Shown here one piece after another: positions 10,831 through 34,740 of a stretch of DNA of 39,926 nt. A model generated the notes under the pieces. That model searched no databases. It was not told where the DNA came from and worked only from the letters and a program-made list of their open reading frames with translations. The stretch is taken from positions 1 through 39,926 of the forward strand of contig CBCSLL010001219.1 of assembly GCA_965140935.1 (NCBI GenBank), written 5' to 3'. A program made the translations under genes and the position numbers. Numbering within the stretch: the stretch's first letter is position 1; every line of letters begins with the position of its first letter. The stretch comes from Rotaria magnacalcarata (Eukaryota).

Positions 10831-10856
10831 CACCCTGCACCACACTCACACACCCT
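10831..10856. repeat. C-strand telomere-repeat-like tract (CCCACA-related)
   Basis: caccctgcaccacactcacacaccc. Confidence 0.5.
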
Positions 10857-11084
10857 TGCATACTTTCACCATGGTCATGAAATAAGATGATACCTCACAT
10901 GCAAAAATCACACAAAATCTGTGTTGTATTTGGATGCGGAGAGCGCCAAAGCGTTTGATTATTATGCTAACAGAAAATGATTTCATCACAAGGAACGAGA
11001 AACAGTCTTATAGGTATATGCATGTGTGCAAAGAAGACAATTTACAGAGTGAATAAACACAAGCCGATGATTTCTCTGACAGAA

Positions 11085-11102
11085 TCCGGCGGGGGCCCGC
11101 CG
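11085..11102. repeat. GC-rich palindrome CCGGCGGG-GG-CCCGCCGG
   Basis: 8-bp perfect arms. Conspicuous in an AT-rich context. Confidence 0.7.
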
Positions 11103-11187
11103 GTAACATCGTCTTTTTCGGCTGATTCCTACTGAAAAGATTCCCGTAAGATGCAATCAGTATTCCTGTCGGAAACATACCGGAGTA

Positions 11188-11282
11188 TGGGGTTTGGGTG
11201 CGTATGCGGGTGTGTGTCGGGGGTCTGGAGTGTGCGTTTCGGTGTGACAACAAATTACAGAAATACCCACACACACACCCCT
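11188..11282. repeat. telomere-repeat-like hairpin: G-rich tract then C-rich tract
   Basis: ggggtttgggtgcgtatgcgggtgtgtgtcgggggtctggagtgtgcgtttcggtgtg ... cccacacacacacccc. Confidence 0.7.
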
Positions 11283-11730
11283 TTTTTTGAAATTTCCATA
11301 TTTTCAAAACTCATATTTCGGGAACGGCTTATTCGTTTGAGTTGAAATTTTGGGACTCTCCATAACTTTATGATATCTACCCACAGTAAAAAGATCACTC
11401 AAATCAGTGAAATTCATTGAGCAACGTTCTGTGGCAATTGGTCGTGGCTTACGTGCAATGCCTCTTAGTCGTAAGCCAAGCATAATTACTAGCGCGCCAA
11501 AATTTGCACTGAGGATTCTTGCAACTACTTTTTCCAACACCTGACTCATGAAAAACATGAGGATGTACGCCTTATGTTTACTATTACCCTCACACATTTC
11601 CACCGGCACGCTTGAATGCTTTGCTTTTTTTGTGCTCAAGAATAAACAATATCGATGTGATTCATGATTAGAATAATAAAAGTGTAATGGTTAAATTATT
11701 AAAACAATCGATGGCACTGAAAATCAATTT

Positions 11731-11946
11731 TTAGTTATCGCCATGATCGATGCCGATAACTATACGTTGAATAAACATGTCCCATGATGAATCGCTCAAT
11801 TCTAATTGTTTACAATAGATACGATTACGTTGACTTATTTGTTGATAGAATCCGATCGCTTTGTCAAGTTTTTCACTTGTGTTAGCAGATAAATGATTGC
11901 AGAGAAAAGCCTTAGCAACATAAAGAGAGTAGGATATAAATTTCAA
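11731..11946 (-). CDS. exon-like segment resembling the vault-PARP (PARP4) C-terminal region
   Basis: KAIGFYQQISQ...CKQLELSDSSWDMFIQRIVIG resembles the human PARP4 C-terminal segment AFEAIKQASEW...RLELGNDWDSATKQLLG, from memory. I could not fit the splice phase to the upstream exon. Confidence 0.35.
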   Translation of the reverse strand: MKFISYSLYVAKAFLCNHLSANTSEKLDKAIGFYQQISQRNRIYCKQLELSDSSWDMFIQRIVIGIDHGDN

Positions 11947-11960
11947 AGATTGGAAAAAAT

Positions 11961-12096
11961 CAATTCACTTTGATTTGTTCAATGTTAAATAAAAATGGAC
12001 ACGTGTTTTGTGGTGAGTCTTGCATTTGAAGAGCGAGCCAAAACAGAATGACACCTGTACCAATTAAACGAAGAATTTCATTTTGTGTGTTCAAAG
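11961..12096 (-). CDS. exon (PARP4 C-terminal-like; ...SLG ALNTQNEILRLIGTGVILFWLALQMQD...)
   Basis: Acceptor ttttttttag at 12097-12098; 50-nt intron. Resembles PARP4 ...SLGVKGRECLLDLIATMLVLQFIRTRLE. The low-end boundary is uncertain. Confidence 0.45.
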
Positions 12097-12146
12097 CTAA
12101 AAAAAAATTAAAGGTCATATCTCTATAATAAATCTTACGATCTTAC

Positions 12147-12255
12147 CGAGCGAGTTAAAACCTAGTGCGCGTAAGTATTGTTCTAGGCCATCGAAAATAT
12201 CAACATTGACATGAAGTATATCAGCTAAATCTTTATTCAACGTAAATGAACCGTC
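12147..12255 (-). CDS. exon (DGSFTLNKDLADILHVNVDIFDGLEQYLRALGFNSL; the DGSW-type motif of the PARP4/VWA5A C-terminal region)
   Basis: Acceptor catag and donor gtaaga. 63-nt intron upstream, phase consistent. Confidence 0.5.
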
Positions 12256-12318
12256 CTATGTTCGAATCAAATGCAAAACAATGATTTGGTAATAAGACTT
12301 GAAAATAGTATCAATTAC

Positions 12319-31830: not shown

Positions 31831-31915
31831 AATAACTGATGCAAGACCATCTGGACTAACGCTAGCATGAACTATAACTGATGCAAGATCATCTGGACGA
31901 ACACTAGTATTTTCG
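31831..31915. repeat. tandem duplication of a ~42-bp unit
   Basis: ataactgatgcaagaccatctggactaacgctagcatgaact followed by ataactgatgcaagatcatctggacgaacactagtatttt. Confidence 0.7.
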
Positions 31916-32716
31916 TTTTTCTTGCCATTAACGTTTTGATAAGCCTCGACAGACCGTCTTGTACCTAACGCTGTACGTTCGATAACTGTTCTTGCTGAAA
32001 AGACAAGTGATTCTCGTACACTAAAACGAACAAATAGTTGTCATGTCAAATGAAAGTAAATTATACTGAAATGAACCTCACATGCGCTGTTGAAAGTAAC
32101 CAATGCCTTCAAGGTTAAATTCACTTTGAAGTATTCTTACTTTTCTATCATCTTCCTTATGTAAAACAAATATTGCCAATAATTTCATTGTTTTGAAATT
32201 TTTCAATAAGACTGGTGAAAATCTCAGTGAAGTTATTAAAATTTAAAAGGATAAAGATTTAATGTGAATAATACTACATGAATATATATAAGAATCCTCG
32301 AAGACTCGTTAGTCATCAATGCGAATATCAATGAAACCTTTTTTTTTGTGACTCAACTTCGGATGATGTGGCAGCTAGAAACCAATCAAAGAGTAGCTAG
32401 ATGACATAAATATTGGTTTGTGAATAATAAGTAAGTACTTTTTACCAACATCGTTATTACTCACATTTACTCTGACGTTACACATATGCGAATCATTAAA
32501 AACTAAGGTTTTCTAAAAATTGAGCCGCCAATTTTATAAAATAGAAAATGAAATCAATTATGTCTTAAACAGATATTGTGTATTATTACCATTGCAAGGT
32601 TTATAGATGCAGAGTCTAAATCAGATCATATTTTACTTTTTACTAAGACTTATGGGTACGGATTTAGTGTAGGTCGGTACAAGTGTGGCTGTGACTGGAT
32701 GCAAGAGAAGAAAAGA

Positions 32717-32732
32717 AACACCCACACCCGCT
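32717..32732. repeat. short C-strand telomere-like tract
   Basis: aaacacccacacccgc. Confidence 0.4.
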
Positions 32733-32875
32733 ATATAGAATGTCAATGTCCTTTGGAAGCTGATATTGACGCATCGAAATGCATACGAAATTACCCGTTG
32801 GAGTCTAGTTTATTGATATTCTTAACGACATATTCGTTACTATGTACATAGTTTATCTATCCATAAAATGAAGAT

Positions 32876-32945
32876 ATGGATGTGGGTGTTTGTATTAAAT
32901 GATAAACAACTCGCACTCATACCTCGACCCTCACACCCACAACCA
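32876..32945. repeat. telomere-repeat-like hairpin
   Basis: atggatgtgggtgtttg ... ccctcacacccacaacc. Confidence 0.7.
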
Positions 32946-33083
32946 TATTATTCGATTTAATATTCGCTTTAATTGTTTGCAGAAAAGCAAAAGTCGAGAT
33001 CAGAAGATTGGTTTGTCTCTTCGTTAAAAGATCGATTGGCCTGTTCTATTATTTGATTTAGGCATATTCTAGAAAAGAATGAA

Positions 33084-33130
33084 GTGTGGGTGCGAGTAAA
33101 GAATCAGTTATCCATACCAACACACACATC
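33084..33130. repeat. telomere-repeat-like hairpin (degenerate)
   Basis: gtgtgggtgcgagt ... ccaacacacacatc. Confidence 0.55.
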
Positions 33131-33957
33131 TGCATTCATACGTACAACCGTCAAATCTGTGAGCTCCTGGAGTTCCATGAGTTCTGTAGAACAGTAAGCT
33201 TGTGAATTATTTGAAAGGTTATTGTTATTTTTCATTATTAGCCCTGCTGAAACTTGAGTTCTGAAATCATTTAGGCTTCAGCATTCGCAGAATTCGGTCA
33301 TTGTTGGAAAAAAAAGATGTACCTACTGAAAAAGCACCGAATACTCATATGTAATATCTTTCGTAGGAGTCTTTTTGGTGACAAAAATTATGAAACAGAC
33401 CTAATAAATCAACAGATTCCGGAGATAGTATGCCCGAACAACTGGGTCTCCAGTTAAGCATATTCTTGAAGTTTGCAGAAAGATGTCTAGTAGTCTCATA
33501 TTACTTCAACTCGTGAAAACCTCTCCAGGAAAACGTGTTTCACAAAATGTTCGGAAAGATATTGGTTACCGTCGTTATTCTCTTTGTCTTAGCGGATTTA
33601 TCGTAAATGCGCATATCTCGTTCGATTTTGTCAAATATTTGTTAATCGAAAGGAAGTTAAAGGGGTACTTTTGTTATCTTCCTACTTTTAAAAGAGAAAA
33701 AAGGGATTATTTATTGAGATTGGCGACTGATGCCGTATAAACCTTGTTTTTCATGAGACTTGCATAAAAAGAAAGCTGTTGTAGCACTATAAAAGTAAAT
33801 ATGATGCTTTCTTCGAGAAAAACATATATAAGTGAAGTGTGACATTTTAATAAAACGCATAATGCATATCACTTCGTATCCGTTCACAGTTTAAATATGT
33901 TCTATTGAAGCAGTTTTACTTTCATTATTTTCATTCTTATTATTTCGAAGCAACAAA

Positions 33958-34578
33958 ATGTCCTCACAGTGCATCCACATGACGTTGATGTTATTGTTCT
34001 CTATTGTTTTTATCTCCGCCGCCAGAAAGATTAATCACTCAGATCCTAGTATGGATATTTCGGCCTTTATTCCGCCCGACATTGATGCCAACGGGCAGGA
34101 AGAAGACCAACGAGCCGATCCGAGTTTAGGAACGGCAATTGTCAACACACAAATACTAACGATATTCAATTACAAAGGAAATCAAGTGTACGTCTATGGT
34201 GCCCTGTCTAATGAAAATGAAAATAAGCTGACACCTCAGAAGTGGATTTTCTATTTCGTCCCGATAATGATGCCAGTGCAAATGGCAGATGATCCTAATG
34301 GCAGCTGGGTTATTAGTGTGAGGAACGAGGTAAGAGCAAAGCTGATGTTAAGCAACACAGATGTTGAAGTGCTAGCACTAAAAGCCATTGAGAAAAAATA
34401 TGCTCCAGATGAATTTCAATATTCAAAATTCTGGACAGTTGCACCGTTGATGATCGACTCCATCAAAGCTTACGTCGTGAAAGGTGGCAATTCGCCCGTC
34501 GAAGGCGTCTACAGTAATCCGATTACGCATCCAAACGGACAGGAAATAATATTTCGGTTTGTCACCTTTCATATATGA
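33958..34578 (+). CDS. intronless ORF for a 206-aa predicted secreted protein, family unknown
   Basis: Hydrophobic N-terminus MTLMLLFSIVFISAARK suggests a signal peptide; balanced composition; no internal stops. I recognise no family. It lies between the telomere-like hairpins at 33084-33130 and 34665-34740. Confidence 0.45.
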   Translation: MSSQCIHMTLMLLFSIVFISAARKINHSDPSMDISAFIPPDIDANGQEEDQRADPSLGTAIVNTQILTIFNYKGNQVYVYGALSNENENKLTPQKWIFYFVPIMMPVQMADDPNGSWVISVRNEVRAKLMLSNTDVEVLALKAIEKKYAPDEFQYSKFWTVAPLMIDSIKAYVVKGGNSPVEGVYSNPITHPNGQEIIFRFVTFHI

Positions 34579-34664
34579 TGTCATAAAATTTGTGACGATG
34601 GAAGGTGCACGGATCCACCAAAATAATACTATTGGTATTGTTACAGCGTATGTGGACCCTTTTT

Positions 34665-34740
34665 GGTGTGGGTGTGGGTGTGGATGAGTGTAGGTGTAAC
34701 TCCTATCTTCGCCAGACCCACACCCACATCCACACCACCA
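34665..34740. repeat. telomere-repeat-like hairpin, the best-preserved copy
   Basis: ggtgtgggtgtgggtgtggatgagtgtaggtg - 16-nt spacer - gacccacacccacatccacaccacc. Three consecutive TGTGGG-type units face three CCCACA-type units. Confidence 0.8.

What the first reader, a model, noticed from the sequence alone, without database searches (positions are those of the whole stretch)
10831..34740. Recurrent telomere-repeat hairpins: G-strand (TGTGGG)-like tract, short spacer, then C-strand (CCCACA)-like tract, at seven or more sites
Seven sites share one architecture: 11188-11282, 18006-18062, 28880-28930, 30135-30186, 32876-32945, 33084-33130 and 34665-34740. In each, 15-40 nt of degenerate TGTGGG-type repeats is followed after a 15-40-nt unique spacer by the complementary CCCACA-type repeats. 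Each site is therefore a hairpin, or equivalently a head-to-head junction of two telomere-like tracts. Isolated single-strand tracts occur at 10831, 25123, 30925 and 32717. The large foldback at 1258-2470 also has a C-rich arm facing a G-rich arm. Interstitial telomeric repeats in bdelloid rotifers are usually discussed as unidirectional marks of break healing or as caps of Athena retroelements. A repeated inverted pair is not a pattern I can attribute to a described element. Hypotheses: (i) relics of end-to-end joining of two telomerase-healed breaks; (ii) termini of a family of tiny hairpin-ended elements; (iii) palindromic insertions made by a telomerase-associated process. They bracket the glycosyltransferase and the secreted-protein ORF, so they may mark where foreign or novel DNA was added.
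Basis: partly seen in the sequence, partly recalled or inferred. Interest (0 to 1): 0.78.

Follow-up and report, generated by a model that had tools for sequence, protein, structure and literature searches.

The report
Head-to-head telomere-repeat junction scars
This stretch of bdelloid rotifer (Rotaria) DNA holds at least seven places where a short run of the telomere repeat faces its own reverse complement across a short unique spacer. They are most likely seams where two telomere-capped DNA ends were joined, so they record how these animals break, cap and re-stitch their chromosomes.

Summary
Six G-tract to C-tract pairs lie within 60 nt of each other, against 0.27 expected, and there are no C-to-G pairs (p<5e-5). 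The window is from Rotaria; one site is identical in an independent read assembly.

The same architecture occurs in other Rotaria contigs. There the arms range from 7 nt to 240 and 136 nt and are often unequal. It also occurs in about 40 low-GC metagenome contigs, a few of them tied to bdelloids.

The sites are not conserved elements. H2 lies inside a 529-bp insertion that two related species lack. The G-arm of H3 is missing from a 97.7%-identical R. socialis contig. Synteny blocks end near H1 and near the lone tract at 25123.

I found no target-site duplications, no family-wide shared spacer, no Rfam family and no local template for the spacers.

Best reading (about 0.6): these are neutral scars of two DNA ends, each extended by telomerase or an Athena-type reverse transcriptase and then joined head to head. 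They delimit kb-sized blocks that read C-arm...G-arm.

Arrays tend to start with TGAGGG. Eleven arm edges in eight loci carry the exact 10-mer ATCTTGAGGG, which suggests an RNA-templated start. This last point is inference. The spacers remain unexplained.

The parts
11188..11281 (.). H1. Degenerate G-arm 11188-11247, which includes GTGCGTATGCGG and GTCGGGGGTCTGG variant units. Spacer 11248-11264. C-arm 11265-11281.
   Evidence: The fold is no better than shuffles. The variant units recur in the R. magnacalcarata long array. The site lies about 400 nt outside the end of synteny with L008 and L129.
17871..18399 (.). A 529-bp lineage-specific insertion that carries H2: 135 nt unique, then H2, then 336 nt unique.
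   Evidence: It is absent from L129, where the two flanks abut, and from L008. The unique parts match nothing else in the window or the fetched loci. No target-site duplication or terminal inverted repeat at its ends.
18006..18062 (.). H2. G-arm 18006-18022 (GGTGTGGATGTGGGTGT). Spacer 18023-18044. C-arm 18045-18062.
   Evidence: z = -3.5; 14 of 15 bp.
25122..25134 (+). Unpaired G-strand tract GAGGGTGTGGGTG, about 150 nt beyond the end of the synteny block.
28881..28928 (.). H3. G-arm 28881-28905 (GGGTGTG followed by CGTATGCGTGTTGTGTT). Spacer 28906-28918. C-arm 28919-28928.
   Evidence: Identical in Logan contig L004. R. socialis L005 lacks window 28730-28902, which includes the G-arm, but keeps the spacer and C-arm. 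Homology with R. sordida L006 ends at 28868.
30136..30185 (.). H4. G-arm 30136-30150. Spacer 30151-30167. C-arm 30168-30185.
   Evidence: 12 of 13 bp.
30925..30936 (+). Unpaired C-strand tract ACACCCACACCC.
32683..32729 (.). H8, a degenerate eighth site. G-arm GTGTGGCTGTGACTGG at 32683-32698. Spacer. C-arm ACACCCACACCC at 32718-32729.
32874..32948 (.). H5. G-arm 32874-32893 (ATATGGATGTGGGTGTTTGT). Spacer 32894-32928. C-arm 32929-32948.
   Evidence: z = -4.0; 15 of 16 bp. Its spacer is a reverse-complement relative of the H6 spacer (pair I24).
33084..33129 (.). H6, a weak site. G-arm 33084-33092. Spacer 33093-33115, which contains GAGTAAAGA. CA-rich C-arm 33116-33129.
34665..34739 (.). H7. G-arm 34665-34698, with a perfect core at 34665-34683. 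Spacer 34699-34716. C-arm 34717-34739. The site starts 87 nt after the stop codon of ORF 33958-34578.
   Evidence: z = -5.8; 19 of 20 bp.

Best explanation
Each site is an interstitial head-to-head junction of two short telomeric tracts. I read it as a neutral scar, not a working hairpin.

Proposed sequence of events:
1. Two DNA ends each had G-strand repeats (TGTGGG and variants such as TGAGGG) synthesised onto their 3' ends. The ends could be the two sides of a chromosome break, or a chromosome end and a free fragment. The enzyme would be telomerase or the related Athena/Terminon reverse transcriptase.
2. The two capped ends were then joined, leaving 10-46 nt of filler.

On either strand the junction therefore reads G-arm, spacer, C-arm. 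The DNA between two neighbouring junctions reads C-arm...G-arm, like a small linear fragment capped at both ends.

Shown here: the polarity, the telomeric nature of the arms, their variable and unequal lengths, the lineage-specific presence, and the position near block boundaries.

Inferred: the enzyme, the order of events and the origin of the spacer.
For: 1. Polarity and pairing. There are 6 G-to-C pairs and 0 C-to-G pairs, against 0.27 expected.

2. The unit is the bdelloid telomeric repeat (PMC7943196, PMC8494291). The window is from Rotaria.

3. The same architecture has very different arm lengths elsewhere.
- R. magnacalcarata: 13 vs 50 nt, and about 240 vs 136 nt with a 21-nt spacer. 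Both junctions are interior to a 126-kb contig and identical in two assemblies.
- R. socialis L005 and R. sordida L006 each have one.
- Metagenome loci: 72 vs 114, 56 vs 15 and 39 vs 12 nt.
- Unequal arms with different internal order argue against fold-back copying and against a fixed motif.

4. 'Degenerate' bits of the window's arms (GTGCGTATGCGG, GGGTGTCGGC, GGGTCTGG) recur inside the long R. magnacalcarata arrays. The arms are therefore array-derived.

5. The sites are not conserved.
- H2 lies in a 529-bp insertion absent from L129 and L008.
- The H3 G-arm is absent from 97.7%-identical L005.
- Synteny with L008 and L129 ends about 150-450 nt from the 25123 tract and from H1.
- Homology downstream of the glycosyltransferase breaks near a junction in three Rotaria species.

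6. Outer edges of arms. Of 75 arms, position -1 is A in 42, -2 is G in 44 and -3 is T in 34, so the first unit tends to be TGAGGG. The exact 10-mer ATCTTGAGGG sits at 11 array edges in 8 loci with unrelated flanks, including R. socialis L130. This fits synthesis from an RNA template that starts at variable positions.

7. A 2026 study proposes transient neotelomeres at radiation-induced breaks in A. vaga that leave scars. It reports telomeric and Athena sequence at deletion breakpoints (PMC13564844).
Against: - The spacers are unexplained. They are unique and have no template within 1 kb. Yet a subset share motifs: AAGAGA/TCTCTT in 8 of 47, and CTTTACTC directly before the C-arm in several loci including H6.
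- H2 is not a simple break, cap and rejoin. There are 135 and 336 nt of orphan DNA between the ancestral flanks and the arms.
- Most arms are very short, 7-20 nt. Some mirror each other in non-canonical units (H5, L006, L063, L069). That could also reflect selection for pairing.
- No empty site is available for H1 or H4-H8.
- No telomerase RNA is known for rotifers, so the templated-start idea is untested.
- The bdelloid origin of most low-GC metagenome loci rests on composition and repeat type. Only three have weak protein links to bdelloid loci, and one of the set (L069) proved bacterial.
Confidence: 0.6

Rival explanations
1. A retroelement made the junctions rather than telomerase. Each arm would be a copy of the short (ACACCC)n or (TCACCC)n tail at the 3' end of an Athena/Terminon RNA, primed on a broken 3' end. 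The spacer would be a severely 5'-truncated cDNA, or the product of a template jump onto the other end. The junction would then be reverse-transcriptase-mediated bridging of two ends.
For: - Terminon 3' ends carry (ACACCC)n or (TCACCC)n directly after a hammerhead ribozyme and attach to G-overhangs or breaks (PMC6431247, PMC3846280).
- TGAGGG, the reverse complement of TCACCC, is the commonest first unit.
- Typical arms of 10-25 nt fit a short fixed tail.
- Spacer motifs shared between loci and genera suggest a common RNA template.
- Athena fragments are reported at A. vaga breakpoints.
Against: - There is no hammerhead or any other Rfam hit in or beside the sites, even at E<=5.
- No ORF of 100 aa or more abuts a junction; no reverse-transcriptase profile was run on the flanks.
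- Arms of 50-240 nt are too long for a copied tail.
- Most spacers share nothing.
Confidence: 0.2
2. A family of miniature mobile elements, MITE- or foldback-like, whose terminal inverted repeats are telomere-like.
For: - Recurrent inverted arms, sometimes with an extended palindromic edge (TTGAGGG...CCCTCAA; ATATGG...CCATAT).
- Several copies per few kb.
- H5 and H6 have related spacers.
Against: - No target-site duplications at any site.
- The edge motif is nested or truncated rather than constant.
- Arm length runs from 7 to 240 nt, and the interior from 10 to 46 nt with no family-wide consensus.
- The insertion that carries H2 is 529 bp of unique DNA, not the hairpin alone.
Confidence: 0.08
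3. A functional palindromic element, such as a transcript 3'-end or terminator structure, an insulator or protein-binding palindrome, or a small-RNA precursor.
For: - All sites are intergenic.
- H7 lies 87 nt after an ORF stop. The R. magnacalcarata junction lies 42 nt after the stop of a glycosyltransferase paralogue.
- Some arms keep pairing through non-canonical units.
- H7 gives sub-threshold miRNA-like hits.
Against: - Not conserved at orthologous positions.
- Arms are unequal and of any length.
- H1, H3 and H6 fold little or no better than shuffles.
- The Rfam hits are far below gathering scores (28 vs 85 bits) and are to GT/CA-rich hairpin families.
Confidence: 0.07
4. An inverted duplication of a single telomeric tract, produced by fold-back priming or sister-chromatid fusion.
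For: The arms are reverse complements of each other and are sometimes mirrored in variant units.
Against: - The flanks outside the arms are not palindromic.
- Arm lengths differ up to 4-fold.
- In the long R. magnacalcarata junction the two arrays have different internal order.
Confidence: 0.04

Closest known systems
   Same: The same repeat unit and variants (TGTGGG, TGAGGG). Short tracts. Association with transposable elements, foreign-looking genes and block boundaries. Synthesis on exposed 3' ends.
   Different: The described tracts are unidirectional, between head-to-tail elements. Here the tracts come as inward-facing inverted pairs with a 10-46-nt unique spacer and no adjacent retroelement body. 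Searches of the held literature turned up no description of this pairing. The two key papers are not held, so I cannot exclude that they mention it.
Transient neotelomeres at radiation- or desiccation-induced breaks in Adineta vaga (PMC13564844, 2026)
   Same: That study proposes that telomeric repeats are added to broken ends that are later repaired, 'leaving only scars'. An inverted pair is what two such ends would leave if they were joined.
   Different: The paper reports telomeric or Athena sequence at a few deletion breakpoints. It does not report paired inverted tracts or fixed interstitial seams. The present sites are old, fixed and partly decayed.
Head-to-head telomere fusion relics, for example human 2q13
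   Same: The same polarity: G-strand arrays meeting C-strand arrays.
   Different: The human case is a single chromosome-scale fusion with long arrays and no unique spacer. Here there are many sites per tens of kb, arms of 1-4 repeats, and a constant presence of a spacer.
Telomere-bearing elements and gene-sized nanochromosomes of spirotrich ciliates (from general knowledge)
   Same: kb-sized DNA segments bounded by C-strand repeats on the left and G-strand repeats on the right.
   Different: Those are free macronuclear molecules, or transposons with a transposase and a target duplication. Here the segments are concatenated in a chromosome. No programmed fragmentation is known in rotifers.
Templated or filler insertions at polymerase-theta end-joining junctions (from general knowledge)
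   Same: Short filler DNA at the join between two ends.
   Different: No nearby template for the spacers was found at k=9 within 1 kb.

Membership tests
Interstitial telomeric sequence from telomerase healing | The unit equals the host telomeric repeat. | tested here: met
   TGTGGG is the bdelloid repeat. Rotaria loci carry arrays of 136-240 nt of the same unit and variants.
Interstitial telomeric sequence from telomerase healing | The G-strand runs 5' to 3' away from the retained unique DNA, towards the former end. | tested here: met
   In every pair both G-strand 3' ends point at the spacer: 6 G-to-C pairs and 0 C-to-G pairs.
Interstitial telomeric sequence from telomerase healing | Lineage-specific presence, with a break in colinearity at or near the tract. 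| tested here: met
   The H2 insertion, the H3 indel, and synteny ends near H1 and 25123. Not testable for H4-H8.
Interstitial telomeric sequence from telomerase healing | The start of the tract is templated by telomerase RNA. | not testable with these tools
   The nested ATCTTGA|GGG edge is suggestive. No rotifer telomerase RNA is available.
Athena/Terminon (endonuclease-deficient Penelope-like) insertion | A hammerhead ribozyme motif directly next to the (ACACCC)n or (TCACCC)n tail. | tested here: not met
   No Hammerhead hit at the gathering threshold or at E<=5 in 10500-35200. A 10-40-nt truncated remnant would escape detection.
Athena/Terminon (endonuclease-deficient Penelope-like) insertion | A reverse transcriptase ORF or element body next to the tract. 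| tested here: inconclusive
   No ORF of 100 aa or more abuts any junction. No reverse-transcriptase profile was run on the flanks.
MITE or foldback transposon | Target-site duplication, terminal inverted repeats of constant sequence and length, and a shared interior. | tested here: not met
   No duplication. Arms 7-240 nt. No family-wide spacer consensus.
Known structured RNA or miRNA family (Rfam 15) | A score at or above the family's gathering threshold. | tested here: not met
   0 hits at the gathering threshold. The best is mir-466 at 28.5 bits against 85.
Fold-back or sister-fusion palindrome | Arms of equal length that mirror each other, with the palindrome continuing into the flanks. 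| tested here: not met
   Arms are unequal (13 vs 50, about 240 vs 136, 56 vs 15). The flanks are unrelated.

The most novel reading that the evidence does not exclude
Bdelloid DNA, both native and incoming, passes through a state of kb-sized linear pieces that carry short neotelomeres at both ends. These pieces are later re-concatenated, so the inverted pairs are the seams of that reassembly.

On this reading the fixed sequence at array starts (ATCTTGAGGG) and the recurrent array ends (GTGAGTAAAGAG..., GGAT...) are read-outs of the flanks of the template in the still-unidentified rotifer telomerase RNA. That RNA could then be found from genomic scars alone.
Probability: 0.25. Interest if true: 0.8.

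Novelty: new variant of a known kind. Interest (0 to 1): 0.6.

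Why it matters
Bdelloid rotifers survive massive chromosome breakage and carry unusually many foreign genes. How broken ends are protected and how new DNA is stitched in is an open question.

If inverted telomere-repeat pairs are seams between two capped ends, they are a simple, scannable sequence signature. They would date and map past break, cap and rejoin events and DNA additions across any bdelloid genome. That would make the recently proposed 'transient neotelomere' model testable from sequence.

The conserved sequence at array starts may also point to the unknown rotifer telomerase RNA template region, or to the retroelement tail that does the job.

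Tried and rejected
**Searches and scans that found nothing useful**
- Rfam at the gathering threshold and at E<=5, and a tRNA scan. Nothing relevant.
- MAFFT alignment of the seven sites with flanks. No shared spacer or flank beyond the arms.
- Search for target-site duplications and terminal repeats around each site and around the 529-bp insertion. None found.
- Search for local templates of the spacers (k=9, within 1 kb, both strands). None found.
- Exact look-up of the secreted ORF 33958-34578. It is not on record. Its nearest homologues are 59-63% identical, and their loci (L001-L003) have no junctions, so no comparison was possible for H6 and H7.

**Ideas considered and dropped**
- Fold-back origin. 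Rejected because of the unequal and non-mirrored long arrays.
- Hammerhead remnant in the spacers. H7 has a GGATGAG plus a 4-bp stem, but no GAAA core and no covariance-model hit, so I dropped it.
- An intron-like reading of GTGAGT at inner arm ends. No 3' AG or frame support, so I dropped it.
- Assembly artefact. Rejected because the spacers are unique and the sequence is identical in independent assemblies.

**Limits of the metagenome data**
- The pattern scan also returned a high-GC bacterial REP-like family and terminator-like palindromes. I set these aside by GC content. One low-GC hit (L069) is bacterial.
- Cluster look-up of ORFs from L103 and L095, meant to name the organism, gave no taxon names.

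**Literature**
- Gladyshev and Arkhipova 2007 and Arkhipova et al. 2017 are not held. I could not check whether inverted pairs are mentioned there.

Full report
**1. What the window is**

The sequence is about 35% GC, eukaryotic and rich in transposable elements. It contains:
- a mariner-like ORF with flanking inverted repeats;
- PIF1-helicase (Helitron-type) ORFs;
- a PARP4-like gene with PARP, VIT and VWA domains, at about 19.1-24.7 kb on the minus strand;
- an EF-hand, calmodulin-like gene at about 16.1-17.9 kb;
- a family-28 / EryCIII-like glycosyltransferase at 26.8-28.4 kb;
- an orphan ORF with a hydrophobic N-terminus at 33958-34578.

The glycosyltransferase ORF is 99% identical to a Rotaria socialis protein and 86% to one from R. 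sordida. Window 25983-29116 is 100% identical to a Logan contig assembled from run ERR2135451. The host is therefore a Rotaria bdelloid. TGTGGG is the accepted bdelloid telomeric repeat (PMC7943196, PMC8494291).

**2.

All seven sites read as described.
- H2, H4, H5 and H7 are clear: stems of 13-20 bp at 92-95% match, and DNA-fold z-scores of -2.3 to -5.8.
- H1 is lopsided. H3 has only a 7-bp core. H6 has a poor C-arm.
- An eighth, degenerate site lies at 32683-32729.

GTGGGTG occurs 9 times against 0.64 expected, and CACCCAC 7 times against 0.59. Six G-tracts have a C-tract within 60 nt downstream, and no C-tract has a G-tract downstream. Random placement gives 0.27 pairs, and none of 20000 trials reached six. 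Even with every tract forced into 7 kb, p = 5.5e-4.

Because the arrangement is its own reverse complement, 'G then C' holds on both strands. The arrangement that is excluded is 'C then G'.

The foldback at 1269-2459 has that excluded polarity. It is a 1.2-kb near-perfect palindrome, so it is a separate object.

**3. The same thing elsewhere**

*Other Rotaria contigs*
- R. socialis contig L005 has its own junction: GGGTGTGGGTG, 22 nt, CCACACCCACACCACACACCCC.
- R. sordida contig L006 has another.
- R. magnacalcarata (L131 and L132, two assemblies, 99.99% identical) has two. One lies 42 nt after the stop of a glycosyltransferase paralogue, with arms of 13 and 50 nt. The other has a G array of about 240 nt, a 21-nt spacer and a 136-nt C array. 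Both are interior to a 126-kb contig.

*Metagenome scan*
- Many hits are unrelated high-GC bacterial palindromes.
- About 40 are low-GC contigs with the same architecture, often several per contig.
- Three of these share protein-level similarity with bdelloid loci.
- One low-GC hit (L069) is bacterial and was dropped.

*Background*
- About 66 kb from five other bdelloid loci (L001-L003, L007, L008) contains no pairs.
- The window is therefore unusually dense in them.

**4. What the arms are**

Arm length runs from 7 nt to more than 200 nt, and the two arms of a pair are often unequal: 13 vs 50, about 240 vs 136, 72 vs 114, 56 vs 15 and 39 vs 12. In the long R. magnacalcarata junction the two arrays differ in internal order. 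The arms are therefore independent arrays. They are not fold-back copies and not a fixed-size motif.

Sequences in the window's arms that look like decay also occur inside those long arrays:
- GTGCGTATGCGG in H1 and H3;
- GGGTGTCGGC in H2;
- GGGTCTGG in H1 and H7.

They are therefore variant units typical of Rotaria arrays.

**5. The sites are not conserved elements**

*H2.* L129 is 84-92% identical to the window and L008 about 80%. Both are syntenic with window 11.7-24.9 kb. In L129 the sequences flanking window 17871-18399 abut directly, and L008 also lacks this stretch. H2 therefore lies in a 529-bp insertion specific to the window lineage: 135 nt of orphan DNA, H2, then 336 nt of orphan DNA. 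The insertion has no target duplication or terminal repeat and no other copy.

*H3.* L005 is 97.7% identical but lacks window 28730-28902, which includes the H3 G-arm. It keeps the spacer and C-arm.

*Block boundaries.*
- Synteny with L008 and L129 ends about 400 nt from H1 and about 150 nt from the lone G-tract at 25123.
- Downstream of the glycosyltransferase, homology between the window and R. sordida ends 12 nt before H3. The R. sordida junction sits 134 nt past that point. Homology with R. socialis ends at 29137, about 100 nt before that contig's own junction.
- Beyond the end of its synteny, L129 has a GC-rich ORF-like stretch followed by two same-orientation TGAGGG tracts.

**6. Edge signatures (observation firm, interpretation inferred)**

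*Outer edges.* I oriented 75 arms from the low-GC loci as G-strands and looked at the bases before the first canonical repeat. Position -1 is A in 42, -2 is G in 44 and -3 is T in 34, so the first unit tends to be TGAGGG.
- Of the 15 arms with TGA, 11 read TTGA, 8 read TCTTGA and 6 read ATCTTGA.
- The exact 12-mer ATCTTGAGGGTG sits at 11 array edges in 8 loci, including R. socialis L130, with unrelated DNA beyond it.
- The conserved part touches the repeats and is lost at variable distance from them.
- That is the pattern expected if synthesis from an RNA template starts at variable positions. It is the opposite of what a 5'-truncated element or a transposon terminus would give.
- Within the window the edges are instead mostly (A)ATGGGG or TGAAGG. 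There is no ATCTTGAGGG at any junction.

*Inner edges.* These often read GGGTGTG-AGT... or GGTGTGG-AT....

*Spacers.* A subset share AAGAGA/TCTCTT (8 of 47), or CTTTACTC directly before the C-arm. The CTTTACTC motif includes H6 in reverse complement. H5 and H6 have reverse-complement-related spacers.

*Candidate templates.* Published Terminon 3' ends carry (ACACCC)n or (TCACCC)n after a hammerhead ribozyme (PMC6431247). TCACCC is the complement of TGAGGG. Either telomerase RNA or an Athena-type RNA tail could therefore be the template. No hammerhead is detectable at the sites.

**7. Best explanation**

Two DNA 3' ends were each extended with G-strand repeats and then joined head to head. This accounts for:
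- the invariant polarity;
- the independent arm lengths;
- the array-type variants;
- the lineage-specific presence;
- the position near block boundaries;
- the fact that inter-junction segments read C-arm...G-arm, like fragments capped at both ends. Examples are 28919-30148, 30168-32888, 32932-33092, and 33116-34683, which holds the orphan ORF.

It also fits the recent proposal of transient neotelomeres at breaks in A. vaga that leave scars (PMC13564844).

It does not explain the spacers. They have no nearby template. It also does not explain the orphan DNA around H2. Confidence is about 0.6. The retroelement-tail variant is a close second, at about 0.2.

**8. Rivals**

- A transposon family fails on target duplications, constant ends and a shared interior.
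- A functional hairpin fails on conservation and on the arbitrary arm lengths, although closeness to ORF 3' ends (H7, L131) keeps it alive at low probability.
- Fold-back duplication fails on the unequal, differently ordered arms and the non-palindromic flanks.
- An assembly artefact is excluded by the unique spacers and by independent assemblies.

**9. Novelty**

Interstitial telomeric repeats in bdelloids are well known, but as unidirectional tracts between head-to-tail Athena/Terminon copies or at healed deletions. Six full-text searches found no description of recurrent inward-facing pairs with a spacer. The two most relevant papers are not held, so prior mention cannot be ruled out.

I class this as a new variant of a known kind. 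It is of moderate to good interest because it offers a scannable signature for the break, cap and rejoin model, and a possible handle on the unknown rotifer telomerase RNA template.

Noticed in passing
window 1269-2459: A 1.2-kb near-perfect palindrome (inverted repeats of 231 nt at 94% and 142 nt at 91%) with a 257-nt insertion in the left arm (1411-1667). Its polarity is C-rich on the left and G-rich on the right, the opposite of the junctions. The arms carry GGGTGTTAGT-type units and the exact 13-mer AGTAAGTGTTAGT, which is also the H3 spacer (28906-28918, minus strand). GTAAGTGTTAGT also flanks a junction in metagenome locus L105.
   Followed up: partly
8 loci: L015 932-943; L038 144-155; L063 2109-2120; L076 1073-1084; L094 367-378 and 657-668; L096 1424-1435; L103 717-728 and 1465-1476; L130 8967-8978: The exact sequence ATCTTGAGGG(TG) sits at the outer edge of telomeric arrays in eight independent loci with unrelated flanks, including R. 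socialis. It may be a read-out of the RNA template that starts the arrays. It is absent from the window's own junctions.
   Followed up: partly
L131 12032-12111 and 13035-13432 (also present in L132): R. magnacalcarata has a junction 42 nt after the stop of a glycosyltransferase paralogue, with arms of 13 and 50 nt. About 0.9 kb further on it has a G array of about 240 nt, a 21-nt spacer and a 136-nt C array. All of this is interior to a 126-kb contig. Glycosyltransferase loci in four Rotaria contigs each have such a junction within 1 kb downstream.
   Followed up: partly
window 4387-5702: A mariner-like DDE ORF (4517-5116, minus strand; no Pfam hit at E<=0.001) bracketed by inverted repeats at 4387-4502 and 5589-5702. 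Probably a decayed Tc1/mariner copy.
   Followed up: no
window 6844-9643: Two ORFs of a PIF1-like helicase (Pfam PIF1, E = 2.7e-22), Helitron-type, interrupted between 8700 and 9026.
   Followed up: no
window 15137-15299: A palindrome with 63-nt arms at 89% match and a 37-nt loop. It looks MITE-like and is unrelated to telomeric repeats. It gives a sub-threshold MIR6459 hit on both strands.
   Followed up: no
window 16635-17598: Nested inverted repeats (arms of 58-66 nt, 77-91% match) inside the calmodulin-like gene, probably a foldback or MITE in an intron. The related loci L129 and L008 align only to the exons on either side.
   Followed up: no
L129 9460-9942: Beyond the end of synteny with the window, this related bdelloid contig has a GC-rich ORF-like stretch followed by two same-orientation TGAGGG-type tracts. 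This is the classical one-directional pattern next to a possibly foreign gene.
   Followed up: no
metagenome loci such as L013, L023, L029, L037: A high-GC bacterial repeat family: ggagttacgcagttcaggagaaaat-TGTGGGTGTTTGGGCGGGC...GCCCGCCCAAACACCCACATCC-tcccaccaactgcgtaag. It was picked up by the pattern scan, looks REP-like or terminator-like, and is unrelated to the rotifer junctions.
   Followed up: no
window 29137-29172: A (CT)n microsatellite sits exactly where homology with the R. socialis contig L005 ends.
   Followed up: no
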